In this document: one piece after another, positions 4,132-25,187 of the stretch
Position numbering within the stretch: the first letter of the stretch is position 1
Layout: each line of letters opens with the position of its first letter
Assembly: GCA_019090615.1 (NCBI GenBank)
Contig: JAHRVQ010000052.1
Coordinates: 65,938 to 97,937 of the forward strand
Source: Pseudomonadales bacterium
GTDB lineage: Bacteria; Pseudomonadota; Gammaproteobacteria; Pseudomonadales; Azotimanducaceae
DNA length: 32,000 bases
Direction of reading: 5' to 3'
The notes under the pieces: model-generated
The model's database searches: none
Told to the model about the DNA's origin: nothing
The model's input: only the letters and a program-made list of their open reading frames with translations
Program-made: the position numbers and the translations under genes

Positions 4132-4350
4132 AACGCAAAGGTATTATATATTGAACTATATTGTTACTACTTTTTTCATCATGTACAAGGCCGTCGCCTG
4201 TTAGCCCCCGTCAGGACATCGATAATCTACCAGCAATACGTCTATTTGGAGCCATTATTGCCGTTAGCCTTATGGGTAAATGCAGATTTTTGCGATAAAA
4301 ACTCGCAAACTAAAAAAGGATAAAAGGGAAAAAGCGAAAAGGGTAAAGCG

Positions 4351-7065
4351 TTAGAGTGCCCTGGCGACGCGAAAACCCACCCTGATGCTCGCTTCAACGG
4401 TATCGTCCCTATCGCGGTTCGCGGACCGCAAATTCGCAGGTCTGTTGAACCAGCCACCGCCGCGCAACACCTGCCGGGCGCAAGCGCCCTTATCCGTAGG
4501 CCAGGCTGATTCATCATCCGGCGCCCCCTTATAAGAACTATGCCAACAATCCGCCACCCACTCCCAAACGTTACCATGCATATCAAATAGACCAAAGTTG
4601 TTGGCTATAAAACTGCCAACGGGTGCTGTCTGGTTGTTAAATCCATCCTTTGGCCATCCATATCGTTCATCGCCATTGGCATGTTTACCACTGGGCGCAT
4701 CGCCCCAGCTATAACGGGTTTGGGTACCTGCTCTGGCCGCATATTCCCATTGCGCTTCGCGGGGCAGATAATAGGCTTCGCCCGTTTTAGTGGATAGCCA
4801 TTTAACATAGGCGGCGGCGTCCAACCCGCTAACATTAATCACCGGCCGCTTAGCACGCCCCCAACCCCTGTCAGCTGGCAGCTTTTTACCTTCTGCCAGG
4901 GCAAAGGCATCATATTCCTCAAAGGTCACCTCAAAGCGGCCCAGGGCAAAGGGTGCTTCTATCGTCACCTTATGTGCTGGCCCCTCATTTTCTTCACGGC
5001 CCGCCTCGTCTTTTTCTGAGCCCATTCTAAAAACTCCAGCGGGTATCACCACCATAGCAGGACAAAAACTACAGTCGGCAAAAGTATCACCGGCTGCATA
5101 ATCAGCTTGCGCGGGTTTTTTAGGGTTTATTACTGGTTGTTTTAAAGTACGAATTTGCGCTTTCAAGCTGGCTATGGTGCGGTTTTTTGAGTCAATAATG
5201 GCCTGTAACTTCTGGTCCGTGCTGGCATTACCGCCAACCTCGATCTGTAAGGTTTTAAGCTGTAAGTTCAAAGCAGCCACCTGCGTATTTAGCGCGGTAT
5301 TAACCGCCCCAATTTGCTGTTGCGAAAGTTCCGCCGCAACGGCCTCCTGTTCCTGTTGGTCAAGGATTTTTGTTAATTGCTGGCTGGTGATATCGGATCG
5401 TCTTTTTTGTGCTTCATTAGCTATTTGTTCCGCTCGTCTGGCGACTGTTTCGGCGGATTTTGCCTGCCAGGCATAAAACCCTGCGCCACCAACTACCAGT
5501 AAAGCAAGACTTAAAAGCACCAAAACCGCCTTCACTGTTTTAAGCGACTGGGCCTGGCGCTGGCTTTGCTGTCGATCTTTTTCAACCTGCGCATAGTGGC
5601 TGGCGCTTTGTTGCAACAGATTGTCAACCGCCGAATAATGCTCACCCGCCTCGGCTGGCCAATGCCCTGGAGTGAGAAAAAGATTGGCCCAGGGCTTATT
5701 TTGCGTTGGCCACCATAATTGTCCGGCGCGGGTAACCGTCGATGACAAAAAACAGCTATTATCTGCCGCATAGGCCGTTGCACCACGCACCAGATCGTTA
5801 TAAAAACGCCGATCCATTTGCTCCTGGGCCAGCCAACCGGTTTTAACCTCGGCCAGGCGGTGCCAATTGCGTATCAGCGCTTCATGGCTAATATCAATAA
5901 GGGTATCAGGTTGCAATGGGCTACCATAAGGTGGCATCAAAAAATTCACCCCTGGCAGGCTAAATATCTGCACCACATAGGACAACAGCGCAATGTCAAC
6001 CTCTGCCATTGCCGCGATTTTGCTTAGACTTTGCGGCGCGCGTGTTTGTCGGCCATCCTGATCAACCGCCGTAATACAGCGGAAAATTCGCGCAGCTATC
6101 GGCTGCAGGTCCTGCTCAGCTGCCGCGTCAACCGCAAGCCCGGTGTAGATTTCATCCGCATGTCTGGATAACGCTTGCGCCATACCACCAATGGCCTGGT
6201 AGTCATCGATATCCAGGTAATCAGGCTGTTGGCCCACTTCCCAGGTCCGCATCAGGGCATGCTGCATTACCGGCAAATGATCAGGGTCATCCCCCACCTC
6301 GGCAATAATCTGCTGCACCAGCGTTGGTGACATTTCACGCCCGGCGCGTAACGCCGGTTGTTCAATAGCAATACGGCGTTGCTGACGATTCATCCTTGGT
6401 ACCAGAAACTGGCCGGCATTAATTACCTCGGGCAAACCGGAAAAACGGGTACAGTCGCCCAAAAAGTCAAGCCGGGTCGTCAGCATAATATGTACCGAAC
6501 AGGTTTGCTGCAGATCAGCCTGCACCGCACGGATTAATAATTTAACGAACCGAGTTGCTTCTTCCCAGGCCGCTGGCCCGGCCTGGTTAGCGAAGCGAAA
6601 TACTTCTTCAAACTGATCCACAATCACCAGAAATTTTGTTGCCTGGGCATTTTCTTCGATCACCTCTGCCAGGCCATTACTGCTACTTAATAACAACGCC
6701 CTGGTGCGCATAAATTCCAGCTTGCTCAGATCAAAACTCGCATTGTCGGTTGCCGGTCCACGCTGAGTACGGTTATCGATCTCCAGCAGGGCCTGGGTTA
6801 ATACATCCATTGGCCTGGCCCCCGGGCGCATCACCAGCCATTGCCAACCACCGTTGCCCTCCAAACGAGGCAATAGACCTGCCCGCACCAACGACGATTT
6901 ACCACAGCCAGACGCGCCCACCACGGTAACAAAACGAGTATTATCGAGCTTGCTGGTCAGGGTTTGTATCTGTTCCTCACGACCAAAAAAATTCGCCCTG
7001 TCCTGGTATTCAAAGGGCCGCAAACCCGGATAAGGATTACCCAACACAACATTCGTACTAGGCAT
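4351..7065 (-). CDS. STAND (nSTAND-type) P-loop NTPase, single TM helix, coiled coil, C-terminal FGE/SUMF1-like domain
   Basis: 904 aa. The N-terminus NPYPGLRPFEYQDRANFFGREEQ, Walker A VVGASGCGKSSLVRAGLLPRL and Walker B FLVIVDQFEEVF are typical of novel-STAND NTPases. One hydrophobic helix (VKAVLVLLSLALLVVGGAGFYAW) lies near residue 520. A Q/A/L-rich heptad region follows. The C-terminus has GNVWEWVADCWH, VLRGGGW and GFRVARAL. The start overlaps the upstream TIR gene stop by 8 nt. Confidence 0.85.
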   Translation of the reverse strand: MPSTNVVLGNPYPGLRPFEYQDRANFFGREEQIQTLTSKLDNTRFVTVVGASGCGKSSLVRAGLLPRLEGNGGWQWLVMRPGARPMDVLTQALLEIDNRTQRGPATDNASFDLSKLEFMRTRALLLSSSNGLAEVIEENAQATKFLVIVDQFEEVFRFANQAGPAAWEEATRFVKLLIRAVQADLQQTCSVHIMLTTRLDFLGDCTRFSGLPEVINAGQFLVPRMNRQQRRIAIEQPALRAGREMSPTLVQQIIAEVGDDPDHLPVMQHALMRTWEVGQQPDYLDIDDYQAIGGMAQALSRHADEIYTGLAVDAAAEQDLQPIAARIFRCITAVDQDGRQTRAPQSLSKIAAMAEVDIALLSYVVQIFSLPGVNFLMPPYGSPLQPDTLIDISHEALIRNWHRLAEVKTGWLAQEQMDRRFYNDLVRGATAYAADNSCFLSSTVTRAGQLWWPTQNKPWANLFLTPGHWPAEAGEHYSAVDNLLQQSASHYAQVEKDRQQSQRQAQSLKTVKAVLVLLSLALLVVGGAGFYAWQAKSAETVARRAEQIANEAQKRRSDITSQQLTKILDQQEQEAVAAELSQQQIGAVNTALNTQVAALNLQLKTLQIEVGGNASTDQKLQAIIDSKNRTIASLKAQIRTLKQPVINPKKPAQADYAAGDTFADCSFCPAMVVIPAGVFRMGSEKDEAGREENEGPAHKVTIEAPFALGRFEVTFEEYDAFALAEGKKLPADRGWGRAKRPVINVSGLDAAAYVKWLSTKTGEAYYLPREAQWEYAARAGTQTRYSWGDAPSGKHANGDERYGWPKDGFNNQTAPVGSFIANNFGLFDMHGNVWEWVADCWHSSYKGAPDDESAWPTDKGACARQVLRGGGWFNRPANLRSANRDRDDTVEASIRVGFRVARAL
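4450..4648. repeat. Near-identical 199-nt block shared with 10341..10539 (inside FGE-like domain coding sequence)
   Basis: By-eye alignment shows only a handful of mismatches over 199 nt. This is far above the identity of the rest of the two genes. Confidence 0.8.
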
Positions 7066-8698
7066 CGGTATCCTCGAGGCCGTTTTTACTTGAAGGGCTA
7101 TGGTTGCCAGGGCGCTGACTTAAAGCGCTATGCGCTCGTTGAATATCTGCTGTGCGCGTCTTCAGCCTATCGATAAAAGGCTGAAACATCGTACTATCCG
7201 CCCCTTTGATGACATTAATCACGGTGTCAACCGCCGGACTGCGGAACAGGCTTTTTTGCCCGCTTTCAGGCGCTGCCAGGATCACAGCCGTTACCCCAGT
7301 GCGCGTGCCTGGGTAATTATCAGCAGCCAGATCGCGGCCCTGTAATATCATTAGTTGCTGCTGAAAATCTGCATAGGTCTGACTCCCATAATGCAGCAGC
7401 ACAGCGTCACAATGTTGTAATTGCGCCGCCTGATGTTGTGCCCGGGTATCAGCATCAGATTCAAAATCTGGCAATACCACCTCAACACCCGCATCAACCA
7501 ATATATTGTAGACAGGGGTCATTAACGCCAGGTCCTGCTGCGCATAATATAAATAGATCAATGGAATTTTTTGCTGCGCTGGTTCTACGGGCGCGGGTAC
7601 TATGGAGGTTGTTTTGATTGCTAACAGGGTATCAAGCACAGTGGTTTTCAGGTCTTCAAAGGGTTCACCATTAAGCACTTCATCATCAGGCTGTATATCC
7701 TGGTAGGTCTGCAGTTTTTCGATAAAGGATTTATGCCCAGGTTCTTTTACCTGCAGGTTTTTTTCCAGCCAGACGATACGTTTAATATCTGCTCCCTGTT
7801 GCCGGTGGCTAGCCACTAGATCAAACTGCTGGTGCACAATTGGCTGCGCCGCACCATCAGGGGTATTACCATCGGGAGTATAACCACCAGTTTGACCAAT
7901 CAGATGAATCGCCATGCTAGCCGACTGTATTTCTTCTTTGATACCCTGCAAAACCTGGTCTTGCTGCAGCGGCAGTAGCGGCTGTTGCGGCACCACTCGA
8001 TAACCATGGCTTTCGAGCTCATCACGAAGCTCCTGCCACCTGTCCAGCAGGTCATGGCTGGTGACTGCCAGATAGAGCGTTATTATATCGTTATCTATAG
8101 CCGGCACTGTATCTGGTACTGCAACCAGTGCATTTTCCGCTGTTATCGTAGATTTGATCGCTGCTAGCTGGTTATTAATCGACTTACCGAGTTGACGAAT
8201 GCCCTTCCAGTAGTCGCGGTGCAGATGTTCGCCAAAACCATCGAAGAACGGTATTTCATCGTTCTCCTGCTGATCGATATGAAAAAATTTGAAGCCGGTT
8301 TTATCACGGATCAAATCCGGCTGCAGCGCCAGATCCAGGTCCCTGATGAGTATTTTTTGAATGGCACCAGACTCGCCATCATGGCTGCTAACAAAGGCTT
8401 CAAACTCCTTCAAACAATAAGGACTATCAACCCAACAGGGCGATACTAAGGCTAAAAATACCGGTGCATCACGCACCGCATCCAGGATAACCTCATCAAA
8501 AAAAGTCACCGGGTCTATATCCCGCTTATCCCGCCATAACTCAAATGCCAGCGCCTGTTTGGTCAGCTCAATGCTCAGCGCACGATCAAAAAAATCCACC
8601 CAGCCAACAAAATTTTCACCCATGGGTGATTGATTATCGTCATGGGCATAACTTAAGAAAATCGTGTGCATAGCGTAGGCAGCGCTCCCCGATAGCAT
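7058..8698 (-). CDS. TIR-domain protein followed by two further TIR-like/Rossmann-like modules
   Basis: 546 aa. The N-terminus MHTIFLSYAHDDN...VFLALVSPCWVDSPYCLKEFEAF matches the TIR strand A, strand D and helix motifs, with a conserved Glu. Two later segments repeat the strand-helix pattern: ITLYLAVTSHDL...ASMAIHLIG and IPLIYLYYAQQDL...CDAVLLHYG. The true start may be the Met at 8671. Confidence 0.8.
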   Translation of the reverse strand: MLSGSAAYAMHTIFLSYAHDDNQSPMGENFVGWVDFFDRALSIELTKQALAFELWRDKRDIDPVTFFDEVILDAVRDAPVFLALVSPCWVDSPYCLKEFEAFVSSHDGESGAIQKILIRDLDLALQPDLIRDKTGFKFFHIDQQENDEIPFFDGFGEHLHRDYWKGIRQLGKSINNQLAAIKSTITAENALVAVPDTVPAIDNDIITLYLAVTSHDLLDRWQELRDELESHGYRVVPQQPLLPLQQDQVLQGIKEEIQSASMAIHLIGQTGGYTPDGNTPDGAAQPIVHQQFDLVASHRQQGADIKRIVWLEKNLQVKEPGHKSFIEKLQTYQDIQPDDEVLNGEPFEDLKTTVLDTLLAIKTTSIVPAPVEPAQQKIPLIYLYYAQQDLALMTPVYNILVDAGVEVVLPDFESDADTRAQHQAAQLQHCDAVLLHYGSQTYADFQQQLMILQGRDLAADNYPGTRTGVTAVILAAPESGQKSLFRSPAVDTVINVIKGADSTMFQPFIDRLKTRTADIQRAHSALSQRPGNHSPSSKNGLEDTDA

Positions 8699-8883
8699 AG
8701 TAGTTTTTATTCAAATGCTACTATATCAATAAATTACACCACTTTTACAGGATTGTGACTGGCTATTTTTCTGGGTGTTTTTAACCGGCGCAAGCCTCGC
8801 GTTATTAACGCCGTCGTCTACCCGCACCCTGGTGTATTCTTATTATCGATTCATCGCTGATCAAAACATGAACACGGCAAATA

Positions 8884-8897
8884 TTTTTTGGGGGGGG
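8884..8897. repeat. T6G8 homopolymer tract in the 279-nt spacer upstream of the TIR/STAND gene pair
   Basis: Direct reading atattttttggggggggtataac: G8 at 8890-8897 preceded by T6. Confidence 0.9.
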
Positions 8898-8977
8898 TAT
8901 AACAGATTCCCAGCTACTTTATTTTTGCGCTAATAATTTACTGCCTGTGCGTATGTAAAAGCACAAAGGGTAAAGCG

Positions 8978-10078
8978 TTAGAGTGCCCTGGCGACGCGAA
9001 AACCCACATCGAAGAACGAATCATCGGTAAGGAACCTAAGGCGGTTCGCGGACCGCAAATTCGCTGGTATGTCGTTCCAGCCACCGCCGCGCAACACCTG
9101 CCGGGCGCACTGCGCCCCATCAGCATCCAGCCAGGATGAGCCATCAACAGGCGCCCCAACATAACTATCATGCCAGCAGTCTGCGGTCCATTCCACGACA
9201 TTACCCGACATATCAGACAGCCCCAACAAATTACGTTGAAATGATCCACCTGACGCAGTATATGGATAACCATCCTCACAATCTGCAAATTCCTCAACGC
9301 CCAACTTTTTCGCCAGGGTTTCGTCAGCACCATTGGCATAAATACATTGTTGGTCATGGCCGGCGTCCTGACCCCAGTAATATGCCTCTATGCTGCCCGC
9401 GCGAGCCGCATATTCCCATTGCGCCTCTGACGGCAAATAATAATCAAACCCTGTCACCAGCGATAACCAGCGCGTATAGGCATTGGCATCACGCCAACTA
9501 ATACAGGTCACTGGATGAAGCCTGGTTTGTGGAAAACCCGGGTTACGCCAGTTACGATCCTTGCGCTGCTCGTAACCCTCCGCATCTGCATTAAATGCAT
9601 AGCAGCCGTTGGTCTCAGAATCAGCCTTATAACCGCTATCTTCCACAAAATCTTCAAATTGACCCAGGCTAACTTCGCACCGGCTGAGTGCAAAGGGTTG
9701 TTTAATGGTCACGCCATGTAATCTCTCATCAGGGTCACGGTCAGCTTCATTTTCCTCTGAACCCATATAGAAACGCCCTGACGGAATAATCACCATTTCA
9801 GGGCCAGGGGTTGCTTCTAACTCGGATATTGCCCTGTCTGTACAGGGCTTAGCGGGCAAGCTACCGGCAGGCTTAAAATCCACCAGGCTAGCATCCCTTG
9901 TTAACGGCCGGTCTGCTGGCTTCTTCCCCTTAGTAGACTTTTCTGGCCCCATTGCGATCGCGTCAGTAGGATAAGTAACCGCTATTATCAGGGGCATAAA
10001 TAATAAGACGCATAACCGTATAGTCGGCAATAAATGACAATCTTGCATCACCTTTAGGGTATTCGTTGAATCCTTCAT
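8978..10078 (-). CDS. Secreted or membrane-anchored FGE/SUMF1-like domain protein
   Basis: The ORF track gives 8978..10114. I prefer the ATG at 10078 (MKDSTNTL...), which is preceded by GGAGCAAATA. A hydrophobic leader follows (LLPTIRLCVLLFMPLIIAVTYPTDAIA). The FGE-like motifs are RFYMGS, WEYAARAG, GNVVEWTADCWH, VLRGGGW and GFRVARAL. Confidence 0.85.
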   Translation of the reverse strand: MKDSTNTLKVMQDCHLLPTIRLCVLLFMPLIIAVTYPTDAIAMGPEKSTKGKKPADRPLTRDASLVDFKPAGSLPAKPCTDRAISELEATPGPEMVIIPSGRFYMGSEENEADRDPDERLHGVTIKQPFALSRCEVSLGQFEDFVEDSGYKADSETNGCYAFNADAEGYEQRKDRNWRNPGFPQTRLHPVTCISWRDANAYTRWLSLVTGFDYYLPSEAQWEYAARAGSIEAYYWGQDAGHDQQCIYANGADETLAKKLGVEEFADCEDGYPYTASGGSFQRNLLGLSDMSGNVVEWTADCWHDSYVGAPVDGSSWLDADGAQCARQVLRGGGWNDIPANLRSANRLRFLTDDSFFDVGFRVARAL

Positions 10079-10241
10079 TATTTGCTCCAAACTTTTATGC
10101 GTCATCTGCCTCACATGGGCAACCTGTCAACCGCATTTGAACAACTGATAAAATTTATTTACCTGCCCAGAAAACGTTTTATAACCTGAGAAAGCGGTAA
10201 AGGTATAAAAAGAAAAGGGAAAAAGAGAAAAGTACCAAGGG

Positions 10242-13200
10242 TTAACGTGCCCTGGCGACGCGAAAACCCACAAGGCTGAACGAAGCACCGGAATTGATCC
10301 AATAGCGGATCGCGGACCGCAAATACGCTGGTTTGTCGTTCCAGCCACCGCCGCGCAACACCTGCTGGGCGCAAGCGCCCTTATCCGTAGGCCAGGCTGA
10401 TTCATCATCCGGCGCCCCCTTATAAGAATTATGCCAACAATCCGGCACCCACTCCCGAACATTACCATGCATATCAAATAGACCAAAGTTGTTGGCTATA
10501 AAACTGCCTACGGGTGCTGTCTGGTTACTAAATCCATCCGCTGGCCAGCCAAAATATTCACTACCATTAGCATGTTTGCCACTGGGTGAATCGCCCCAGT
10601 TATAGCGGCTACTGGACCCTGCCCTGGCGGCATATTCCCATTCTGCCTCTGTGGGCAATCGATAACTGGCGCCGGTCTGTTCTGATAACCATTCAACGTA
10701 GGCCGTTGCATCATGCCAGCTAACATTAATCACCGGTCGTTGGGCACGGCCCCAGCCTTCGTCATCTGGCAATGGGCGCCGGGTACTACGGGCAAATAAA
10801 TCATACTCGGCAAAGGTCACTTCCATCATACCCAGCGCAAATTTTCGGCTAAGGGTCACCTTATGTTGCGGACTTTCATCCTCGCGACGGCCCTCTTCCC
10901 CTACCGGCGAGCCCATCATAAAACTACCTACCGGTATGTTAACCATTCTCGGCCCCTGACCACCAACCAATAACGAATCACTGAAGGTGTTTGAGGGCTT
11001 AATAGAAGCAAAATTATCTGCAGACTTAAACTCTGTCAGTTGACCTGGCGACAAGTGATGTGCCCTGTTATCTTGCAGAATAACATCAGGGTTGGTTTGT
11101 GTGTTTGTTATACCTTCAGCGTCCTGCCATAAAACCAGGTTAATTTCATCGCTGGCCAGGGCAGTATCTAATGCCGCCGGCAAAAAACGCGCATAACTTA
11201 AATTATTCAGCCGCCGACGCACATATTGCACCTGTTGCAGGCTAACATTTTTGCCATAGGATAAGGGCTGCGCTGCCGGTCCAGTTTGCCGCAGGGCAAC
11301 CCGGTTGACGTTAAAACCGTGGCTGTATAATCGTGCTGCCAGTGCTGTAGCCAGCTTATTGGTGGTGGATGCTTCGATATTCACCACTAGATTACGATGT
11401 TGATTACGCTGATAATCCATCAACCAGTCTTGCAGCATAAACCCAATGGCCTTGTTATTTGCGGCAATACCCAACCCCAATAGCAGCGCCAGAATAAATG
11501 CTCTGGCGCCGTACAACATGGCCGTAAAACGCTGCAGGCCCGGCAGGTTGCGCGCCAATGTTTTACCCAGCCTGATATCAATTTTTTCTCCCCGGCCTAA
11601 CATCAGGCGGGCAAACACAGCATCGGAATAAACACTGGCAGGGGGTTTTGCTTCAAATAACACCCGCAGCAGATCCCAGCCACCATCCGCCTGGCGCAGT
11701 CTACGGCTCAGGTTTTGCCACCACTCACCTGCACCAGGGGGCAGAGCGATAGGCAGCACAATTTCACCACGGGTACTGCTGACACCCTGGAATAAACCCA
11801 GATAGACCCCCTTAACCCGGTCAACCTGCGCCGGTATCAATTCACGGGTTAGATCATCACGCAGCCAGTCGGGCATATATCCATGTCGGCACCAGGGCAA
11901 TTGAGCAATACGCAACATACGCTGTTCGCGACTGGCAGCGTCAGTTGCCTGGGGAAACAAACTACGATCCAGCGCCCGGGTCAGGCTCCAGTGAATCTGC
12001 GGATAGGCCGCCATGGCCCCCAGCAAGAACATACCCCTGCCATCAAGATAACTTTTAATCGCTGCCAGCATTGCACCGCGCTCGGCCTTTACCGGCGGCA
12101 GTGGTTGCAACAGCAAATCCTCATCCCGCAATAGATCCGGCAAGGGTATATAACCGCTATGCGGCGGGTTACGCGGCATCCGCTGGTTGCTCGATAAAGC
12201 GCTGTCCTGGGGGCTAGTTCTATCCAGGGGACGAAAGGGGCGCGCTATGGTTTTGGCCATAGCAACCAGACCATCGCTATCCAGCGCAGCGAGGCGAAAC
12301 CCCGCGGCTACAATATTGTTTTGAGTATCGTCAGCCACCTGGCTAGTATTCAAAATACCCCGCTGATCCCATACCTGCAGCTGGTCCGCCCAGTGATTTA
12401 AACTGCCGTCCCAGATATTAAACAGGATAGCCGGATCACCCACCAGGATAAGCCGCGAACCCCGATGCTGGGCCGCAATATCGGCCAATGAACGTAATCG
12501 ATGTTGCCCAAAGGCTTCACGCGCAAAACCTGGATTGTCACGATAATCAAAGCGGTGCACCGTTAAGCCGGCCTGTTCTAATAACGCCAGCACACGATCT
12601 GCCAGGCCAGCAATATGATCCTCCCGATGTTTAAACTCAGCCAGCAGGATAATTTCCGGAATTTCCTGTCGATCAGCATACACTGGCTGGAACAAGCCGT
12701 TAGCACGGATGCTGCTGGCCACGGTTTGTGCTTCATCCAGCCGTTGGCCTGGATAAAATACCGGCGTATGTAATGCCTTTAATGCGCGCCGCACTTGCTG
12801 GCTGGCAAATAGATCATCCACTGGCGCCCGCACCCGCAACTGCTGCAGTGGATTGGCCGGGTTAGCAGGCCCTTTGCGAAAGGCAATCCAGCGTTGGTAA
12901 TAACGCAACCCAAGCCATATAAAAGCCAGTATCAGGGGCGCCAGCGGCAACAGCCAACGGGCCGCATCCAGACCGCTTTGGTAGCCTGGCATCAGCAGCG
13001 GCGGATCAGGTTTTTTACGCAGCGGCAAGGGCTCAGGCTGGATCTGCAACCAGGCCAGTTTTTCACCCTCGGCTATACCCTCAGCGGATAATGAACCAAC
13101 AGTATCAGATGGTTGCGTCTTGTTAGACAGATCAATCACCGCAGGCGGCGCAATCTTGATAGCCGCAAATGGCCATCGACCGTAGGTCCAGTTATAACTT

Positions 13201-13664
13201 ACGCCAACCACCAACAGGATAAGCAGCATCATACTTAACAGCCACGTTGTGGGTCTGATCAACCTGGGCGTAGGTTGGGTTGATGCCGCCGCCAGCGGCG
13301 CATCCAGTACTTTGGTATGCACAAGTTTTGACGCTGCCCATTGCCGGCCTGTTTCGCGGTTAAGGTCCCTTACTTCAAGCGCCGGGTCTGTTTGATCAAG
13401 CCAGAGCTTCATTACCTCGGCAAAACTGGCCTGGTCCAGGGCACTTTTACAGACTAACGGCCCAATATAAGCACCCAGTTGCTGAGGCCGGGTGGGTAGT
13501 TGGTGGTTCAACTGAAGCTGTTGCAGCAGATCGTTTATATTAATCCAGGTGCCTGGGTCATGGCATAAATCGGCCGCCCGCAGCAACCGCCATAGCCGTG
13601 GCAGTCCATCTTGTAATAATTCATCGACGCTCAGGGTCGATAATTTAGGCGCTGACATCTGCAC
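10242..13664 (-). CDS. Large three-TM protein with an uncharacterised ~430-aa cytoplasmic region and a C-terminal FGE/SUMF1-like domain
   Basis: 1140 aa, with a GTG start at 13664 or an ATG at 13658. Hydrophobic segments are LLSMMLLILLVVGVSY, LLPLAPLILAFIWLGLRYY and AFILALLLGLGIAA. The C-terminal 250 aa are paralogous to the 904-aa protein (GNVREWVPDCWH, VLRGGGW, GFRVARAR). The gene starts 10 nt after the MoxR-like gene. Confidence 0.8.
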   Translation of the reverse strand: MQMSAPKLSTLSVDELLQDGLPRLWRLLRAADLCHDPGTWININDLLQQLQLNHQLPTRPQQLGAYIGPLVCKSALDQASFAEVMKLWLDQTDPALEVRDLNRETGRQWAASKLVHTKVLDAPLAAASTQPTPRLIRPTTWLLSMMLLILLVVGVSYNWTYGRWPFAAIKIAPPAVIDLSNKTQPSDTVGSLSAEGIAEGEKLAWLQIQPEPLPLRKKPDPPLLMPGYQSGLDAARWLLPLAPLILAFIWLGLRYYQRWIAFRKGPANPANPLQQLRVRAPVDDLFASQQVRRALKALHTPVFYPGQRLDEAQTVASSIRANGLFQPVYADRQEIPEIILLAEFKHREDHIAGLADRVLALLEQAGLTVHRFDYRDNPGFAREAFGQHRLRSLADIAAQHRGSRLILVGDPAILFNIWDGSLNHWADQLQVWDQRGILNTSQVADDTQNNIVAAGFRLAALDSDGLVAMAKTIARPFRPLDRTSPQDSALSSNQRMPRNPPHSGYIPLPDLLRDEDLLLQPLPPVKAERGAMLAAIKSYLDGRGMFLLGAMAAYPQIHWSLTRALDRSLFPQATDAASREQRMLRIAQLPWCRHGYMPDWLRDDLTRELIPAQVDRVKGVYLGLFQGVSSTRGEIVLPIALPPGAGEWWQNLSRRLRQADGGWDLLRVLFEAKPPASVYSDAVFARLMLGRGEKIDIRLGKTLARNLPGLQRFTAMLYGARAFILALLLGLGIAANNKAIGFMLQDWLMDYQRNQHRNLVVNIEASTTNKLATALAARLYSHGFNVNRVALRQTGPAAQPLSYGKNVSLQQVQYVRRRLNNLSYARFLPAALDTALASDEINLVLWQDAEGITNTQTNPDVILQDNRAHHLSPGQLTEFKSADNFASIKPSNTFSDSLLVGGQGPRMVNIPVGSFMMGSPVGEEGRREDESPQHKVTLSRKFALGMMEVTFAEYDLFARSTRRPLPDDEGWGRAQRPVINVSWHDATAYVEWLSEQTGASYRLPTEAEWEYAARAGSSSRYNWGDSPSGKHANGSEYFGWPADGFSNQTAPVGSFIANNFGLFDMHGNVREWVPDCWHNSYKGAPDDESAWPTDKGACAQQVLRGGGWNDKPAYLRSAIRYWINSGASFSLVGFRVARAR
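10341..10539. repeat. Near-identical 199-nt block shared with 4450..4648
   Basis: See the partner feature. The 3' flanks of the genes also share aaaagggaaaaag[c/a]gaaaag. Confidence 0.8.
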
Positions 13665-13674
13665 ACCGAGGCCG

Positions 13675-14811
13675 CTAAGCTGGCTGTAACCATTTGGTTA
13701 GCAGCCCCGTGGCATCAGCTTGAATTTCAGGGTTTTTCAGCAGGGTCAGCTTAACGGCCGCCAACACCTGCTGGCGCGGCTGCTGGTTTAATAATTTATC
13801 CTGATCCAGATCAAATGGGCGGTTTATGCTGCCGGGTAAAATAAGATCAAGGAAGTTAATCATTTCTGCTAGCCCAGGGCGACGGCTGATATTCACCGCA
13901 TCACTGCGCAAATACCGAAACAGGGCGGTAGCATCCCTGGCCAATTTAGAATCCTCAACAAAACGACTGCCAAGGCGTTGTTGGCATATTTTTTCTATGG
14001 TGACGATGGATTCACCGTCATTGCCATCGTTAGTCTTTTTATTATCCTTTTTATTATTCATCGCCACTGAGCCTTTAATGGCGTCCTCATTAAACGGTGG
14101 AAAGGTAAGATGGTAATAAACACAACGGCGTAAAAAAGCGTCGGGCAGATTGCGCTCTGAGTTACTGGTAATAATCACGATGGGGCGATATTTAAATTCA
14201 TCTTCGGTCAGTTCGACGCGCACTTCATGGCCAACAGCGCGTTCAAATTCTGGAATGCGGAATGCCATATCTTCAAGCTCAGTGAGGATATCGTTGGGTA
14301 CATCGCGGGGTGCCTTGTCAACTTCGTCAATCAGCACCACAGAACGTGACTGTTGATGCGCCTGTACCACCAACGCATCGGCGGCCAAATTTAACGCTGA
14401 GCCGGTTAAAAAACTGACAGGTTTTGAATTTAACAGCGCCAACCCCAGTGCTTCAAATTTGATATATCGTTGCGGTGTGGCATCACCGTCGGTGGAGGCG
14501 GCATGGAAGCGCCCCACCGTATCAAAGCGATAAAACAGGTCGGTTGCGCGGGTATCAGATTTGACCGCAAACACAAAAGGGTCAAGCAGGCCTAACTCCC
14601 AGGCGACCGCATCTGCCAGGCGTGATTTACCCGAACCTGGCTCCCCCGTTAGCAGCAGCGGCATACCTAAGGTGATCGCCACGTTAACGGCGGCGCTAAG
14701 ATCGGCTGGGGCACGATAGTTGGCCCCTGCGCGCATACGTGCCGGGTTTATTTCAGGTATTGCTATATCTGAGCTAGCCTGGCTGCCCTTGCCGGAGAAA
14801 TAGGATTGCAT
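13675..14811 (-). CDS. MoxR/AAA_5-like AAA+ ATPase
   Basis: 378 aa. Walker A is LLLTGEPGSGKSRLADAVA and Walker B is VVLIDEVDKAPRDVPNDILTELED. A sensor-like stretch reads PIVIITSNSERNLPDAFLRRCVYYHL. An AAGGAA ribosome-binding site sits upstream, and there are 10-nt gaps to both neighbours. Confidence 0.85.
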   Translation of the reverse strand: MQSYFSGKGSQASSDIAIPEINPARMRAGANYRAPADLSAAVNVAITLGMPLLLTGEPGSGKSRLADAVAWELGLLDPFVFAVKSDTRATDLFYRFDTVGRFHAASTDGDATPQRYIKFEALGLALLNSKPVSFLTGSALNLAADALVVQAHQQSRSVVLIDEVDKAPRDVPNDILTELEDMAFRIPEFERAVGHEVRVELTEDEFKYRPIVIITSNSERNLPDAFLRRCVYYHLTFPPFNEDAIKGSVAMNNKKDNKKTNDGNDGESIVTIEKICQQRLGSRFVEDSKLARDATALFRYLRSDAVNISRRPGLAEMINFLDLILPGSINRPFDLDQDKLLNQQPRQQVLAAVKLTLLKNPEIQADATGLLTKWLQPA

Positions 14812-14821
14812 CGGTTATTCC

Positions 14822-16231
14822 TTATAAAATTCTAGCCTGCTTTAATGAGTGCAACATATGCTTTTTAAGCGATTTATAACGCAGGCTGGTGCCCTCTGGC
14901 AGCGCATCATCAATACCAGTTTCTATTTTTTCGAGATCATAATATTTATCAAACTGCGCAATATCCTGATACCAGGATTCAAAATGCGCCAGCGATATTT
15001 CCCCCGGTGATGCTAGCCAGGTGGCATTGGTTGTACTTTCAATTTTCAGGTTTTGTCTATTTGCCCTGGCAGCGTCGGTTTCACGAATACAGCCAAAAAT
15101 AATCACCAGCCTTTTATGTCGTCGGTTGTTTTCTGATATGCCTTCAATTAACGCCTGGGCCGACTTAATATAACCATCAAGATAAGGTTCACTACGTTCA
15201 TCCAGTACCGTGTAGATAACTTTAATAGTCGGGTCAGAGCGCATCCACTCATCAAGGCCCGCAATTTTTTGTTCAATAGCCAAGTCTGCTTTAGTGTCCA
15301 AACGGCTGCCTTCTGGATTAGGTTGAGCACCATTATTGGCATTGGCATTGCTGCTGGTGCGAGATATCGCATTTTGCAGCATGGCGTGATAATGCGCTGG
15401 GCCACTGCCAGCCAGCACACTTAAAGCTTTTAGATTATGCCCAGGTTGCTGACTGGATATTGACACCGCACCCTGCCGCTGGCGTAAGATCACATGATCA
15501 GCAAAGGCAGCCAACGAATCTGCGGCCAGGTATTCAAGCAGAAAAATCAAACTGTCGTTACCCGTGCTATCACGGATGACTCGGTCGGTTTCGGCTAATA
15601 GTTTTTCACGATTAATCAACCGGATCAGCATTTGTTCTCGTGCCTCGAACTGGCTGCTGTCTGTTGTTGTAGGTTGCGATAGATTAGCCTGGTGTTGGTG
15701 TTGGTGCTGATGTGGATCGTGATCTTGATGCGGGTCGGTCTCAGCATTGGTCAAGCCTGCCGCAATTGGGCTATCGTCCGAGTGGCAATCAAGTTTATAT
15801 TGTAATTCTGCTACAAATTCACCGAATTTCAGCTCTTCATAGCGATAACAATTACGTTGACTAAAGGGCATTGGCAGTGCGTCATTTTCAAGCTCACCCA
15901 CCAGGATGGGGGAATATCGGCCTATATGTTCCGCCAATTCAATGTTTTGTTTAGCGGCACCGGCTTTATCCTGGCCCCAGACTAAATCTGCTTCCGACCT
16001 TACATGGTCGCTAGCAATCGCATTTTCTGACCATAATACCACCACCGCCCCAGCGAGCTTTACTCGTTTAGGAATCGCGTAGCGCCACCAGGCACCGCTG
16101 AATAGATCAATGTCCATAAATGTCTGAATACCAAAACCTTCTAGCTCCTGTCGAAACTTTAACGCGATCGCTTTATCCAGCCGAGAATAGCTGATAAACA
16201 CATAGGGTTTTGCTGGATCCAGGCGTTTCAT
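14822..16231 (-). CDS. TIR-domain protein with a His/Gln-rich linker and an uncharacterised C-terminal domain lacking a P-loop
   Basis: 469 aa. The N-terminus is PYVFISYSRLDKAIALKFRQELEGFGIQTFMD...AVVVLWSENAIASDHVRSEADL, which gives TIR strand motifs and a conserved Glu. The linker is DPHQDHDPHQHQHQHQ. No GxxxxGK[ST] motif occurs in the C-terminal 270 aa. Confidence 0.8.
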   Translation of the reverse strand: MKRLDPAKPYVFISYSRLDKAIALKFRQELEGFGIQTFMDIDLFSGAWWRYAIPKRVKLAGAVVVLWSENAIASDHVRSEADLVWGQDKAGAAKQNIELAEHIGRYSPILVGELENDALPMPFSQRNCYRYEELKFGEFVAELQYKLDCHSDDSPIAAGLTNAETDPHQDHDPHQHQHQHQANLSQPTTTDSSQFEAREQMLIRLINREKLLAETDRVIRDSTGNDSLIFLLEYLAADSLAAFADHVILRQRQGAVSISSQQPGHNLKALSVLAGSGPAHYHAMLQNAISRTSSNANANNGAQPNPEGSRLDTKADLAIEQKIAGLDEWMRSDPTIKVIYTVLDERSEPYLDGYIKSAQALIEGISENNRRHKRLVIIFGCIRETDAARANRQNLKIESTTNATWLASPGEISLAHFESWYQDIAQFDKYYDLEKIETGIDDALPEGTSLRYKSLKKHMLHSLKQARIL

Positions 16232-16270
16232 TGCTTAAAGGTATTCTTAACTGGTTGCTTTAGGTGCTTA

Positions 16271-16342
16271 TTAAAAGCCGGGCTGTGGCTTTTCTTAAAA
16301 ACCGGGCTGTGGCTTTTGTTAAAAACCGGGCTGTGGGCACTT
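16271..16342. repeat. 24-bp tandem repeat x3 in the spacer between the 153-aa gene and the TIR gene
   Basis: ttaaaagccgggctgtggcttttc ttaaaaaccgggctgtggcttttg ttaaaaaccgggctgtgggcacttc. The core ccgggctgtgg starts at 16278, 16302 and 16326. Confidence 0.85.
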
Positions 16343-16433
16343 CTCATAATCAGTTCTGGTATCTTTTTGATCATTATCTAGTCAGACTCGGTTCTTTTGT
16401 TCGGCTATTCGGCGTATCTATTTTTTTAACTTT

Positions 16434-16895
16434 TTATGTCTTTTCACCAAAAGATTCAACTCCTGCGATCTCGGCTAACATGCCACAATAATTATTCAGG
16501 TCTATCTGCAGGTTTTTTAAATCCTCACGGAATGCTGTATTTGCCCCAGGGCCACCCAGCGTATTGGCCCGTGGATGCCAGTGAGCCGTAAAGGGCCTGA
16601 TGACCTCATTAAGGATAATAACAGCGATACGAGAAAAATTGACGCTTGACCTGCCGTGGGTTTTAAGGATTTCGCGGGTCAGCGGGAACAGCTGATAAAC
16701 GCTGTTTAACGCACTGACTTCATCGCCATCCAATGGGCTTAATGGCACGGTGGTAACCCGCGTTATTAATTCAATATACATACACCAGGCCGCATCTTTA
16801 TCGGCGTCGCCTGGCTGCCATTCCCAATTAGCAAAACCTGCCTTAATGGTGACTTTTTTTAGCTGCCAGGTTTCAAATAAATCCCTGATTTTCAT
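16434..16895 (-). CDS. Hypothetical 153-aa, probably helical cytoplasmic protein; first gene of the minus-strand cluster
   Basis: This is the only long ORF in the interval, and it lies on the same strand as the cluster. I cannot name a recognisable catalytic motif. The weak ribosome-binding site lowers confidence. Confidence 0.6.
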   Translation of the reverse strand: MKIRDLFETWQLKKVTIKAGFANWEWQPGDADKDAAWCMYIELITRVTTVPLSPLDGDEVSALNSVYQLFPLTREILKTHGRSSVNFSRIAVIILNEVIRPFTAHWHPRANTLGGPGANTAFREDLKNLQIDLNNYCGMLAEIAGVESFGEKT

Positions 16896-22385: not shown

Positions 22386-22850
22386 ATGGCATTAGCGGCG
22401 ACAGCCCTGGGAGGCGTTTTCGCGGAATATCATATTGCGTCGCAAACAGAAGCCTACAAATTTTACAACGCCGCATCAAACGCACCGGTCGCGATAGACG
22501 TTGCCGGCCCACAGAACTTCGTAGCAGATTTGCCAGCATTTTATTCCGACGGTTTTTTCGGCGCCAATAAAACTGCCGTCGAAGATATCGTATGGTTTTT
22601 AAGCGACGAAGATCTTGATGCAGGTAAAATTATATTCCATAAACCAGACGCATTCGCACCGCCTTCATTTAAACCGTTTGTGAGTATTGCTGACAATTCC
22701 AATACCTTTGCGATGTTCGATACAACCGTTTCAATTAGCTGGTTGCTGGTAGCAGATAACGCCGGCGCGGGCCTCCCAGGCCCCTCACCCCTGGCGCTTA
22801 TGGCCCTGGGCTTAATCGGTCTTGGTGCATCGCGGCGTAGATCAGCGTGA
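22386..22850 (+). CDS. Paralog 1 of a family with a PEP-CTERM-like C-terminal sorting tail; apparently 5'-truncated (no signal peptide)
   Basis: The tail is LPGPSPLALMALGLIGLGASRRRSA (proline motif, TM helix, Arg cluster). The family motif FAEYHIASQTEAYKFYN is present. The frame is open only back to 22314, and no signal peptide occurs in any upstream frame. Confidence 0.55.
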   Translation: MALAATALGGVFAEYHIASQTEAYKFYNAASNAPVAIDVAGPQNFVADLPAFYSDGFFGANKTAVEDIVWFLSDEDLDAGKIIFHKPDAFAPPSFKPFVSIADNSNTFAMFDTTVSISWLLVADNAGAGLPGPSPLALMALGLIGLGASRRRSA

Positions 22851-22920
22851 CATTAAGCGCACTTAAACCGGCGGCACACCAATGCCGCCAAGGTTTAACC
22901 TAACCAGCCAGCGCAATATG

Positions 22921-23180
22921 CCAGTTATCCGTTAGCCATAAACTTCAAAGGCACGCTGGAGAAATAATAACCCAGCCAATCAAAGCCCTTGCCGATTTTA
23001 TGGCCTATTCTGTCGGGAAATTTTACTGGTTGCTTTTAGAACAAAATTACATACCAACCTTGTTTTCATCCGACATTTACGCCAAGCCTCGTTCAGGCAC
23101 CGTTCATTTTGGCGATATCCGCGCAAAAACTGACGAATTTCCTTACAACCTCTAACCTGCAGCCTAGGTCACACAACAAC
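22921..23180. repeat. About 260-bp segmental repeat, copy 1 (partner 25837..26097; short third remnant near 27768..27800)
   Basis: By-eye alignment is collinear, without indels over most of the length, at roughly 85-90 percent identity. Confidence 0.8.
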
Positions 23181-23304
23181 AACTGATATATATATAAATT
23201 TAGTCTGCTATCTCAACAATTTATAAGCAAGAATAATAACTGGCGGTCACTCCTGGCCGGCATATCTATCACCTGCACCTCTGAAAAGACAGACGTTAGA
23301 GGTT

Positions 23305-23332
23305 AAAACTGTCGATATTATTTACAAAAACC
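23305..23332. repeat. 28-nt perfect direct repeat, copy 1 (aaaactgtcgatattatttacaaaaacc)
   Basis: The identical string occurs at 28052..28079. Weaker similarity continues for about 15 nt further. Confidence 0.85.
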
Positions 23333-23581
23333 CATGAATTCAGACTAGTAATGCACGGAACAACGTGGCCACTCGGGTCACCTACCCCAGCATGATGAAT
23401 CCGGCTGACCGTTAATAACTATAAATTCGAAAGCGATTCTTCGACAACCGTCTGGATTCAATTTTTGCTATGACCCAAATATTAAATTGCATGAGTGGGC
23501 ACTCAACACGATATTGAAACCGCTCCTGTGCCTAGCATTCAGCACGCCATGCGATCAGACGGGATTAATACAGGTAATTAT

Positions 23582-25175: not shown

Positions 25176-25187
25176 GGGTGTCTTAAT

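What the first reader, a model, noticed from the sequence alone, without database searches (positions are those of the whole stretch)
4351..16895. Seven-gene TIR / STAND / MoxR-AAA+ / triple FGE-like-domain cluster: candidate envelope-sensing, NTPase-gated TIR conflict system
Seven ORFs run head to tail on the minus strand:
1. A 153-aa protein (16895-16434).
2. TIR plus a P-loop-less C-terminal domain, 469 aa (16231-14822), followed by a 10-nt gap.
3. A MoxR/AAA_5-like ATPase (14811-13675), followed by a 10-nt gap.
4. A 1140-aa three-TM protein ending in an FGE/SUMF1-like domain (13664-10242).
5. A secreted FGE-like protein (10078-8978), followed by a 279-nt spacer.
6. TIR plus two TIR-like modules, 546 aa (8698-7058), with an 8-nt overlap into the next gene.
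7. STAND NTPase, TM helix, coiled coil and FGE-like domain, 904 aa (7065-4351).

Seen directly:
- TIR strand motifs FLSYAHDD and FISYSRLD, each with a later conserved Glu (CLKEFE, VRSEAD).
- Walker A GASGCGKSS with Walker B VIVDQFEE.
- Walker A GEPGSGKS with Walker B VLIDEVDKA.
- Three copies of GNV.EW..DCWH ... RGGGW ... GFRVAR.

Established knowledge: bacterial TIR domains are NAD-consuming effectors or signal generators in Thoeris and other antiphage systems. STAND NTPases are the switch in Avs/NLR-like immunity. MoxR ATPases normally act on a dedicated partner protein.

Inference: these are two linked modules in which an NTPase gates a TIR effector, and periplasm-facing FGE-like domains supply the input. 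I do not recognise this gene combination as any named defence system.
Basis: partly seen in the sequence, partly recalled or inferred. Interest (0 to 1): 0.92.

Follow-up and report, generated by a model that had tools for sequence, protein, structure and literature searches.

The report
Retroelement-diversified periplasmic sensors wired to TIR
The seven genes are real, but they form two separate, already-described kinds of predicted bacterial "antigen-sensor" systems whose three lectin-like domains carry hypervariable tips written by a mutagenic retroelement that has since been deleted from this locus.

Summary
All seven ORFs, motifs and spacings are confirmed. The interpretation needs two corrections.

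1. The three "FGE-like" domains are variable regions of a diversity-generating retroelement (DGR), not enzymes. Their last ~100 nt differ from each other almost only at positions that are adenines in the template repeat of a related locus (Fisher p=6e-13). That locus carries Avd-RT-TR exactly between the g4 and g5 homologues. In the window the cassette is gone. Its scar is the first 17 codons of avd, fused to g5.

2. The cluster is two separable modules, not one seven-gene system.
- Module A (g1-g5): an accessory protein, TIR plus a possibly iSTAND-like domain, a MoxR-like ATPase, a 3-TM receptor and a secreted lectin. It recurs in about a dozen other loci, with swappable effectors (TIR, caspase, trypsin, PNPase) and sensors (FGS or WD40).
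- Module B (g6-g7): TIR plus nSTAND1-TM-coiled coil-FGS. It recurs on its own elsewhere.

Both architectures were described computationally by Kaur et al. (2020, 2021) and Doré et al. (2024). None has been tested experimentally.

Verdict: a new member of a known kind. Three features are worth noting: all three sensors are predicted to be periplasmic, one repeat family serves both modules, and the RT was lost recently.

The parts
16434..16895 (-). g1, a 153-aa helical protein of unknown function. It is an accessory gene of module A in a subset of loci.
   Evidence: No Pfam, NCBIfam, PADLOC or PDB match. A 50%-identical homologue (E=1e-45) sits immediately upstream of, and overlaps, the TIR gene in L015 and L016.
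14822..16231 (-). g2, a TIR effector. The TIR domain is about nt 15956-16201. A low-complexity His/Gln linker follows, then a ~280-aa P-loop-less C-terminal module (nt 14825-15673) that is positionally equivalent to iSTAND.
   Evidence: TIR_2 E=2.6e-13. The C-terminal module is related by BLASTP (1e-12 to 1e-8) to the C-termini of the caspase+TIR (L013), trypsin (L014) and TIR (L015) proteins that occupy the same position. The positional equivalents in L006 and L011 hit Pfam iSTAND. The direct profile link to g2 is weak (hhalign E~4e-3).
13675..14811 (-). g3, a MoxR-like AAA+ ATPase with Walker A GEPGSGKS and Walker B VLIDEVDKA.
   Evidence: AAA_5 E=1.3e-10. The closest solved relative is CbbQ/NirQ/NorQ, weakly. 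NCBI names it a MoxR family ATPase. It is 65% identical to the L001 orthologue and is the syntenic anchor in 12 loci.
10242..13664 (-). g4, a 1140-aa membrane receptor. Layout: conserved N-terminal helical domain (aa 1-135), TM1 (~137-157), TM2 (~236-256), cytoplasmic alpha/beta plus helical core (~257-715), TM3 (~717-738), periplasmic linker, and an FGS/C-type-lectin domain (aa 904-1138, nt 10251-10955).
   Evidence: Pfam and hydropathy with the positive-inside rule. The core family has 2287 representatives at E<=1e-3 and no Pfam model. The AF2 model has pLDDT 85, with no significant PDB fold match.
10245..10340 (-). DGR variable region of g4.
10028..10078 (-). Remnant of the avd (DGR accessory) gene. 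Its start codon and first 17 codons (MKDSTNTLKVMQDCHLL) are fused in frame to the g5 signal peptide. This is the deletion scar of the Avd-RT-TR cassette.
   Evidence: tblastn with L001 Avd. The motif VMQDCHLL occurs once in the six-frame translation of the window. It aligns with the Avd N-termini of L001 and L016 and with the L005 remnant.
8978..10078 (-). g5, a secreted or periplasmic lectin-only (FGS) DGR target. It is the short second target of module A.
   Evidence: FGE-sulfatase E=1.9e-56 and an N-terminal hydrophobic segment. Orthologous short targets follow the long target in L001, L005, L010, L013 and L014.
8981..9076 (-). DGR variable region of g5.
7058..8698 (-). g6, the TIR effector of module B. 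The TIR domain is nt 8276-8662 and carries the conserved CLKE Glu. Two further alpha/beta-like regions follow, the first weakly DUF4062-like.
   Evidence: TIR_2 E=4.8e-15. Orthologues of 44-45% identity sit directly upstream of the nSTAND1-FGS gene in L002 and L003. A g6-like region is fused to nSTAND1 in P0121.
4351..7065 (-). g7, the module B receptor. Layout: nSTAND1 NTPase (nt 5761-7035), one TM segment (nt 5467-5529), a coiled coil and an FGS lectin domain (nt 4360-5064).
   Evidence: nSTAND1 E=2.8e-90 and FGE-sulfatase E=6.3e-57. TM at aa 513-533. Of 66 related nSTAND1-FGS proteins, 52 have a TM-like segment at the same place.
4354..4449 (-). DGR variable region of g7.

Best explanation
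The region holds two adjacent but separable retroelement-diversified sensor-effector systems.

Module A (g1-g5) is a MoxR-centred ternary-type system. It consists of a TIR protein with a P-loop-less, probably iSTAND-like C-terminal module (g2), a MoxR-like AAA+ ATPase (g3), a three-TM receptor (g4) and a secreted lectin-only protein (g5). In g4 a large cytoplasmic core is linked through the membrane to a periplasmic C-type-lectin (FGS) domain.

Module B (g6-g7) is a TIR protein plus a single-pass transmembrane STAND receptor: cytoplasmic nSTAND1 NTPase, TM segment, periplasmic coiled coil and FGS domain.

The ligand-binding tips of all three FGS domains are variable regions written by one DGR template-repeat family. 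The Avd-RT-TR cassette once lay between g4 and g5 and has been deleted, leaving an avd'-g5 fusion. The sensors are therefore now either frozen or serviced in trans by an element elsewhere in the genome.

Proposed mechanism (inferred, not shown):
1. A periplasmic ligand binds a variable lectin tip.
2. The signal crosses the membrane. In module B it triggers NTP-dependent nSTAND1 assembly. In module A it triggers MoxR-driven remodelling of the g4 core and the g2 complex.
3. The TIR domains are activated and consume NAD+ or make a nucleotide signal, giving growth arrest or death.
For: DGR origin of the variable tips:
- The orthologous locus L001 has TIR - AAA_5 - 1140-aa FGE - bAvd - RVT_1 - TR - FGE. 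All 15 and 16 TR-to-VR differences lie at TR adenines.
- The three window VRs differ at 30 of 135 columns, and 23 of those are adenines in the L001 TR (p=6e-13).
- Of 28 variable columns, 24 fall at codon positions 1-2. Placing A at the variable columns gives an Asn-rich repeat, VLRGGGWNNKPANLRSANRNRNNTDETNNK. It is nearly identical to the real L001 TR.

Loss of the cassette:
- No RT or TR is present in the window.
- An avd N-terminal remnant lies at 10028-10078.
- The g7 and g4 3' ends are nearly identical for ~180 nt upstream of the VR, yet differ at 23 of 80 positions inside it. This means mutagenesis continued after the two ends were homogenised.

Two separable modules:
-.
- The g1 homologue is seen in L015 and L016.

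Other support:
- Topology.
- The FGS profile matches PvdO and the DGR variable protein TvpA in the PDB.
- Published descriptions of the same architectures: PMC7159879, PMC8195603, PMC10907252.
Against: - No cognate TR or RT could be examined for this genome. It is absent from the searchable genome and metagenome collections, so current activity is unknown.
- The iSTAND identity of g2's C-terminus is only weakly supported, and the single-sequence model failed (pLDDT 37).
- The g4 core is not demonstrably a vWA domain, so the MoxR-partner logic is by analogy only.
- No PADLOC system matches.
- The flanks are housekeeping or regulatory genes, not a defence island.
- No member of these families has experimental evidence for defence, for NADase activity or for a ligand.
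Confidence: 0.6

Rival explanations
1. One reading: one integrated seven-gene, previously unrecognised conflict system in which both NTPase-TIR modules work together on envelope input.
For: The seven genes are co-oriented and close together. All three lectin domains share one VR scaffold. The g7 FGS domain is 70% identical to g4's but only 56% identical to those of its own orthologues. This shows sequence exchange within the locus.
Against: The g6-g7 pair occurs alone among housekeeping genes in L002 and L003. Twelve module-A loci have no nSTAND1 partner. A 279-nt spacer separates the modules. Both architectures are already published.
Confidence: 0.1
2. The same anatomy, but the job is not anti-invader defence. 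The variable periplasmic lectins would tune signalling, adhesion or kin recognition (for example in aggregates or filaments), with the TIR and NTPase parts acting as regulatory outputs.
For: The locus is not in a defence island, lies next to a hybrid PAS histidine kinase, and has PEP-CTERM-type exoprotein genes nearby. Relatives occur in filamentous or aggregate-forming bacteria such as Leucothrix arctica. Doré et al. cite earlier work proposing signal-transduction roles for cyanobacterial DGR targets. Periplasmic sensors would see envelope or extracellular ligands rather than cytoplasmic phage parts.
Against: The effector slot is filled interchangeably by TIR, caspase, trypsin, PNPase and esterase domains. 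That pattern is typical of conflict systems with suicide-type effectors. No regulator output domain is present.
Confidence: 0.2
3. The FGE-like domains are periplasmic enzymes (FGE, PvdO or EgtB-like oxidative maturases) and the cluster is an envelope-protein maturation pathway.
For: The best NCBIfam and PDB matches are PvdO and formylglycine-generating enzymes. NCBI names g7 a 'SUMF1/EgtB/PvdO family nonheme iron enzyme'.
Against: All scores are far below the equivalog cut-offs (~200 bits against 500). The C-terminal segment, where FGE carries its catalytic Cys pair (established knowledge), holds no cysteine here. It is instead the hypervariable, adenine-templated region. The same fold matches the DGR variable protein TvpA. 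Avd-RT cassettes sit beside the orthologues.
Confidence: 0.03
4. The locus is a decaying relic. With the RT cassette deleted, the sensors are frozen and the system is on its way to loss.
For: The avd remnant is fused to g5 and no RT or TR is present in 32 kb. A similar scar exists in Leucothrix arctica (L005). RT-less long-plus-short target pairs occur in L010, L013 and L014.
Against: All seven ORFs are intact with catalytic motifs preserved. VR differences accumulated after the flanks were homogenised. Doré et al. documented trans-diversification of RT-less targets in another genome. Frozen receptors can still function.
Confidence: 0.15

Closest known systems
DGR 'clade 5A' MoxR-associated loci (Doré et al., PNAS 2024, PMC10907252), e.g. 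Thiohalocapsa PB-PSB1 DGR 8
   Same: A MoxR-like ATPase lies immediately upstream of a DGR target. That target has a long N-terminal extension with no recognisable vWA domain. A second, short lectin-only target is present, with an adjacent TIR or peptidase effector gene. RT-less or remote targets are also known.
   Different: Here the RT-Avd-TR cassette is deleted, leaving a scar. Both lectin domains of module A are predicted to be periplasmic. A g1-type accessory gene is present. The RT clade cannot be assigned because there is no RT in the window.
[quoted passage not shown]
   Same: Three-part logic: a third component with an N-terminal TIR, a MoxR ATPase, and a large partner with a variable C-terminal domain. 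FGS is the commonest such domain, TM segments are frequent, and the effector lies after a TM. The positional equivalents of g2 in L006 and L011 hit Pfam iSTAND.
   Different: No vWA domain is detectable in g4. The iSTAND identity of g2 itself is not established.
STAND NTPase-FGS systems with TIR partners (Kaur et al., eLife 2021, PMC8195603); DGR clade 5D STAND targets (Doré 2024)
   Same: nSTAND1 with a C-terminal FGS domain. The TIR is encoded next door or fused. There is a link to a DGR.
   Different: No EAD or Death-like adaptor pair links g6 to g7, because nSTAND1 starts at residue 11 of g7. A TM segment and a coiled coil place the FGS domain outside the cytoplasm, whereas the 2021 paper treats FGS as an intracellular sensor.
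Classical DGR variable proteins (Bordetella phage Mtd, Treponema TvpA, Legionella LdtA)
   Same: A C-type-lectin or FGE-fold domain with a C-terminal VR templated at adenines. TvpA is matched by the family profile.
   Different: Those are stand-alone surface or tail-fibre binders. Here the variable domain is the ectodomain of receptors coupled to cytoplasmic NTPase and TIR modules.
Thoeris and Avs antiphage systems
   Same: Use of a TIR effector (Thoeris) and of a STAND NTPase switch (Avs).
   Different: No ThsA-type partner is present. No PADLOC Avs or Thoeris system matches beyond a weak ThsB-like TIR hit. The sensor is an extracytoplasmic hypervariable lectin rather than a cytoplasmic TPR-type domain.

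Membership tests
DGR target (variable protein) | C-terminal C-type-lectin / FGE-fold domain | tested here: met
   Pfam FGE-sulfatase E~1e-56 for g4, g5 and g7. The family profile matches PvdO, FGE and the DGR protein TvpA in the PDB.
DGR target (variable protein) | VR differs from a template repeat only at template adenines | tested here: met
   Tested indirectly. The three window VRs differ from each other at 30 columns, and 23 of these are adenines in the TR of orthologous locus L001 (p=6e-13). The inferred TR is Asn-rich and nearly identical to the L001 TR. In L001 itself, 31 of 31 TR/VR differences are at A.
DGR target (variable protein) | Cognate TR, reverse transcriptase and Avd in the same locus or genome | tested here: not met
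   The 32-kb window has no RT and no TR, only a 17-codon avd remnant. The rest of the genome could not be reached. Orthologous loci L001, L004, L006 and L016 do carry Avd and/or RT.
Clade 5A-type MoxR/DGR locus (Doré 2024) | MoxR-like ATPase directly upstream of a target that has a long N-terminal extension lacking vWA | tested here: met
   g3 and g4 are separated by a 10-nt gap. g4 has no vWA hit. The same pairing is seen in 12 loci.
Clade 5A-type MoxR/DGR locus (Doré 2024) | Second short lectin-only target and an adjacent TIR or peptidase effector | tested here: met
   g5 and g2. Equivalents occur in L001, L005, L010, L013, L014 and L015.
Clade 5A-type MoxR/DGR locus (Doré 2024) | RT falls in RT clade 5A | not testable with these tools
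   There is no RT in the window and no reference RT tree is available.
iSTAND vWA-MoxR ternary system (Kaur 2020) | MoxR-clade AAA+ ATPase | tested here: met
   AAA_5 E=1.3e-10. The nearest PDB entry is CbbQ/NorQ, E=0.006.
iSTAND vWA-MoxR ternary system (Kaur 2020) | vWA-domain partner protein | tested here: not met
   g4 has no vWA Pfam hit even at E<=10. hhalign of the 44-member family profile against the CoxE-type vWA protein YehP gives E=0.51. Foldseek on a pLDDT-85 model gives only a weak match to NorQD chain G (E=0.011, TM 0.36), among generic alpha/beta folds.
iSTAND vWA-MoxR ternary system (Kaur 2020) | Third component with an inactive STAND (iSTAND) module carrying an N-terminal effector or signalling domain | tested here: inconclusive
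   g2 has an N-terminal TIR and a P-loop-less 280-aa module but no Pfam iSTAND hit. The positional equivalents in L006 (E=2.3e-6) and L011 (E=4.9e-8) do hit iSTAND. The profile-profile link between the two groups is E~4e-3 with low probability.
STAND NTPase-FGS conflict system (Kaur 2021) | STAND NTPase (nSTAND1, NACHT or MNS) fused to a C-terminal FGS domain | tested here: met
   g7 has nSTAND1 E=2.8e-90 and FGE-sulfatase E=6.3e-57. Thousands of proteins share this architecture.
STAND NTPase-FGS conflict system (Kaur 2021) | Effector (e.g. TIR) fused at the N-terminus or encoded next door | tested here: met
   g6 overlaps g7 by 8 nt. The adjacency is conserved in L002 and L003. A g6-like region is fused to nSTAND1 in P0121, and TIR_2 is fused in P0006, P0007 and P0009.
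STAND NTPase-FGS conflict system (Kaur 2021) | Matching EAD or Death-like adaptor domains on the NTPase and the effector | tested here: not met
   nSTAND1 begins at residue 11 of g7, leaving no room for an N-terminal adaptor. No EAD or Death-like Pfam hit was found in g6 or g7.
Formylglycine-generating enzyme (true FGE) | Catalytic cysteine pair in the C-terminal segment; score above the family cut-off | tested here: not met
   There is no cysteine between RGGGW and GFRVAR in any of the three domains. The NCBIfam PvdO, EgtB and GldK scores are all far below their cut-offs.
Thoeris / Avs (named antiphage systems) | ThsA-type partner for the TIR (Thoeris); PADLOC or DefenseFinder-type model hit for an Avs STAND | tested here: not met
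   PADLOC gives only a weak ThsB-like TIR hit for g6 (E=8e-5) and P-loop-only hits for g3 and g7. No ThsA or Avs model matches.

The most novel reading that the evidence does not exclude
This locus may exemplify a bacterial receptor logic analogous to Toll-like receptors with an adaptive twist. Hypervariable, retroelement-written lectin ectodomains in the periplasm would signal across the inner membrane to cytoplasmic STAND or MoxR NTPases that switch on TIR enzymes. One template repeat would programme three sensors that feed two different signalling modules. On this reading STAND immunity is not only cytosolic, and bacteria would survey the envelope with a diversifiable receptor repertoire. 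The recurrent loss of the RT cassette (here, in Leucothrix and in others) could be a way of fixing a useful specificity.
Probability: 0.25. Interest if true: 0.75.

Novelty: new member of a known kind. Interest (0 to 1): 0.4.

Why it matters
DGR-diversified STAND and MoxR systems are the nearest thing in bacteria to receptors that are hypermutated on purpose, yet none has been characterised experimentally.

This locus is a compact case with intact genes. All three variable lectin domains are predicted to face the periplasm, and both outputs are TIR proteins. That makes it a convenient test bed for three questions:
- Do such receptors signal across the membrane?
- What do they bind?
- Is TIR activation NTPase-gated?

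The deletion scar, together with the sign of recent mutagenesis, also bears on how bacteria switch between diversifying a receptor and freezing it.

As a discovery in itself it adds little. The architectures and the antigen-sensor hypothesis are already in the literature.

Tried and rejected
- **Finding this genome's TR and RT.** Pattern scans for the VR/TR scaffold in genome contigs and metagenome contigs found nothing. Exact look-ups of window-edge proteins and of g4 were not on record. Trans activity could therefore not be tested.
- **iSTAND identity of g2's C-terminus.**
  - The homologue search returned only the protein itself.
  - hhalign was weak.
  - The single-sequence model was unusable, pLDDT 37.
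- **'Two extra TIR-like modules' in g6.** Only a weak DUF4062 hit was found, and there is no internal repeat signal.
- **MadB / IetA / mad8 hits for g3.** These are P-loop-level matches far below cut-off. A literature search for MadB was uninformative.
- **Promoter and terminator scan of the cluster.** Nothing above chance.
- **Rfam.** Only two tRNAs outside the cluster.
- **Defence-island context.** Not supported by the flanking genes.

Full report
**Observation.** The seven minus-strand ORFs exist exactly as listed, with 10-nt gaps (g2-g3, g3-g4), a 279-nt spacer (g5-g6) and an 8-nt overlap (g6-g7). Pfam confirms the following:
- TIR_2 in g2 (E=2.6e-13) and g6 (E=4.8e-15).
- AAA_5 in g3 (E=1.3e-10).
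- nSTAND1 in g7 (E=2.8e-90).
- FGE-sulfatase in g4, g5 and g7 (E~1e-56 each).

g1 has no match in Pfam, NCBIfam, PADLOC or the PDB. The Walker motifs and the TIR motifs with their conserved Glu are visible in the translations. PADLOC recognises no named defence system. The flanks are a TonB receptor, an MFS transporter, a hybrid PAS histidine kinase, a CoA-transferase and a UDG. This is not a defence island.

**The key correction: the FGE-like domains are DGR variable proteins.** A search with the g4 N-terminal 896 residues found one relative, P0002, at 46% identity. Its contig, L001, reads: TIR protein, AAA_5, 1140-aa FGE protein, bAvd, RVT_1, then a short FGE protein. L001 carries an Asn-rich template repeat (…RGGGWNNKPRNLRSANRNRNTADETNNNVGFRLA…). 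All 15 and 16 differences between it and the two VRs lie at template adenines.

In the window, the 3' ends of g7, g5 and g4 form a three-copy repeat.
- Over 135 aligned nt they differ from each other at 30 columns. Of these, 23 are adenines in the L001 TR (Fisher p=6e-13).
- In the 117-nt comparison, 24 of 28 variable columns are at codon positions 1 or 2.
- Putting A at the variable columns reconstructs a repeat that translates to VLRGGGWNNKPANLRSANRNRNNTDETNNK. This is almost identical to the real L001 TR.

There is no cysteine in this segment, which is where true FGE has its catalytic pair (established knowledge). NCBIfam scores for PvdO, EgtB and GldK are far below their cut-offs. The family profile also matches the DGR protein TvpA in the PDB.

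**The retroelement has been deleted here.** The window contains no RT, no TR and no fourth repeat copy. The first 17 codons of g5 (MKDSTNTLKVMQDCHLL, from ATG 10078) are the N-terminus of Avd. Compare L001 MINNNTPKAVQDCHLLLEWLIPQL and L016 MNAPRVPPAIQDCHTLLEWLIPQL. The motif occurs only once in the six-frame translation of the window, just downstream of the g4 stop, which is where avd sits in relatives. Leucothrix arctica (L005) shows an independent scar, with avd codons 1-34 fused to the 3' half of the TR.

The g7 and g4 3' ends are nearly identical for ~180 nt upstream of the VR (10 mismatches). Inside the VR they differ at 23 of 80 positions, 20 of them at codon positions 1-2. The g7 FGS domain is 70% identical to g4's, against 56% to the FGS domains of its own orthologues. 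I infer that the two 3' ends were homogenised and adenine mutagenesis acted afterwards. Either the RT loss is recent or an element elsewhere acts in trans. I could not test this, because the genome is not in the searchable collections.

**Two modules, not one system.** The closest g7 relatives, P0003 and P0004 (47-48% identity), each have a g6-type TIR gene directly upstream. Neither has a MoxR or g4-type gene nearby, and both sit among housekeeping genes. A g6-like region is fused to nSTAND1 in P0121.

The MoxR-like g3 anchors a different conserved neighbourhood. It appears in Burkholderiaceae, Leucothrix, Acidobacteriia, Methylococcaceae, Verrucomicrobiota and deltaproteobacterial genomes and in several metagenome contigs. 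The order is [effector protein] - g3-like - [g4-core protein with a C-terminal sensor] - (Avd-RT) - (short FGS).
- The effector slot holds TIR, caspase+TIR, Trypco1 plus trypsin, PNP_UDP_1 or a DUF676 esterase.
- The sensor is FGS or a WD40 propeller.
- g1 has a 50%-identical homologue overlapping the TIR gene in L015 and L016, so it belongs to module A in a subset of loci.

**The unknown domains.** The g4 N-terminal/core module defines a large family with no Pfam model: 2287 representatives at E<=1e-3 and 1400 at E<=1e-10. An AlphaFold model of residues 200-760, built on 74 sequences, is confident (pLDDT 85, pTM 0.79). It shows a TM helix, an alpha/beta domain, a helical domain and a second TM helix. 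Foldseek against the PDB gives no significant hit. A weak match to the NorQD complex (E=0.011) sits among HGPRT and flavodoxin folds. A profile comparison with the CoxE-type vWA protein YehP finds nothing. I therefore cannot call it a vWA domain, which agrees with Doré et al.

g2's C-terminal ~280 residues are related to the C-termini of the effector proteins of L013, L014 and L015 (BLASTP 1e-12 to 1e-8). The positional equivalents in L006 and L011 hit Pfam iSTAND. The direct profile link is weak and the structure attempts failed.

**Topology.** Hydropathy and the positive-inside rule put the g4 FGS domain after a third TM segment and the g7 FGS domain after a single TM segment. g5 sits behind a signal-like segment. 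All three are therefore predicted to be periplasmic. Of 66 related nSTAND1-FGS proteins, 52 have a strongly hydrophobic segment at the same place, so this topology is the rule for the subfamily.

**Comparison with the literature.**
- Kaur et al. 2020 described iSTAND-type MoxR ternary systems. In these FGS is the commonest C-terminal domain, TM segments are frequent and DGRs are linked.
- Kaur et al. 2021 described STAND(nSTAND1)-FGS systems with TIR partners and DGRs located nearby or elsewhere in the genome.
- Doré et al. 2024 described the module A architecture as typical of RT clade 5A. They also described STAND targets (clade 5D), periplasmic as well as cytoplasmic targets, and incomplete loci diversified in trans.

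A further literature search found no experimental characterisation.

**Mechanism (inferred).** A ligand binds a variable periplasmic lectin tip and changes the state of the receptor. In module B this drives nSTAND1 NTP-dependent assembly, which activates the g6 TIR. In module A the MoxR ATPase remodels the g4 core with the g2 complex and activates or releases the g2 TIR. The output is NAD+ consumption or a nucleotide signal. The shown steps are domain identities, VR signatures, synteny and predicted topology. Every functional step is inference.

**Verdict.** This is a new member of a published, computationally defined kind. Its modest points of interest are three periplasmic sensors from one repeat family feeding two TIR modules, and a recent RT deletion scar.

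Noticed in passing
window 22386-27638: A family of three to four paralogous small secreted proteins ends in a PEP-CTERM-like tail (…LALMALGLLGLGASRRKS). The DNA between them is repeated, with families of 120, 265, 61 and 54 nt.
   Followed up: no
window 28114-29759: Three ~67-nt direct repeats spaced 72 nt apart lie upstream of a RadC-like JAB gene (28854-29396) whose C-terminus looks cut. tRNA-Ser(GCT) and tRNA-Arg(ACG) follow, and a 60-nt repeat links 26116-26175 with 29397-29456. This may be an old integration site.
   Followed up: no
window 4322-4350, 8957-8977, 10213-10241; L001 5320-5360 and 8163-8200; L005 14357-14400: A pyrimidine-only tract (consensus ~ACTTTTYTCTTTNTCCCTTT) is conserved immediately after the stop codon of every VR-bearing gene in the window and in relatives. 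It cannot form the hairpin known from the Bordetella phage DGR. Its role in retrohoming is unknown.
   Followed up: partly
L005 14436-14610 (Leucothrix arctica NZ_QGKL01000039): This locus has an independent deletion scar. The first 34 codons of avd are fused directly to the 3' half of the template repeat, and no RT lies between the long and short targets. RT-less long-plus-short target pairs also occur in L010, L013 and L014.
   Followed up: partly
L001 3-776: In the closest orthologous locus, the TIR domain is inserted inside the g2C-like module (…FGCLRD – TIR – WLNQPGNIS…) rather than placed N-terminal to it.
   Followed up: no
proteins of alignment A3 (relatives of g4): Two of 44 close g4-family members carry IcmF-related/IcmF_C (type VI secretion TssM periplasmic) domains in place of the FGS domain. 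TssM shares the TM-TM-cytoplasmic domain-TM-periplasmic domain layout.
   Followed up: no
L007 12883-15009, L009 11052-15008: In two MoxR/g4-core loci the sensor is a WD40 beta-propeller instead of FGS. These loci have no DGR, and the TIR is encoded as a separate small gene upstream.
   Followed up: no
window 4351-7065: The g7 protein did not appear as its own best hit in the large protein search. It is filed in a 90% cluster whose representative is an unrelated-looking 35-aa fragment.
   Followed up: yes
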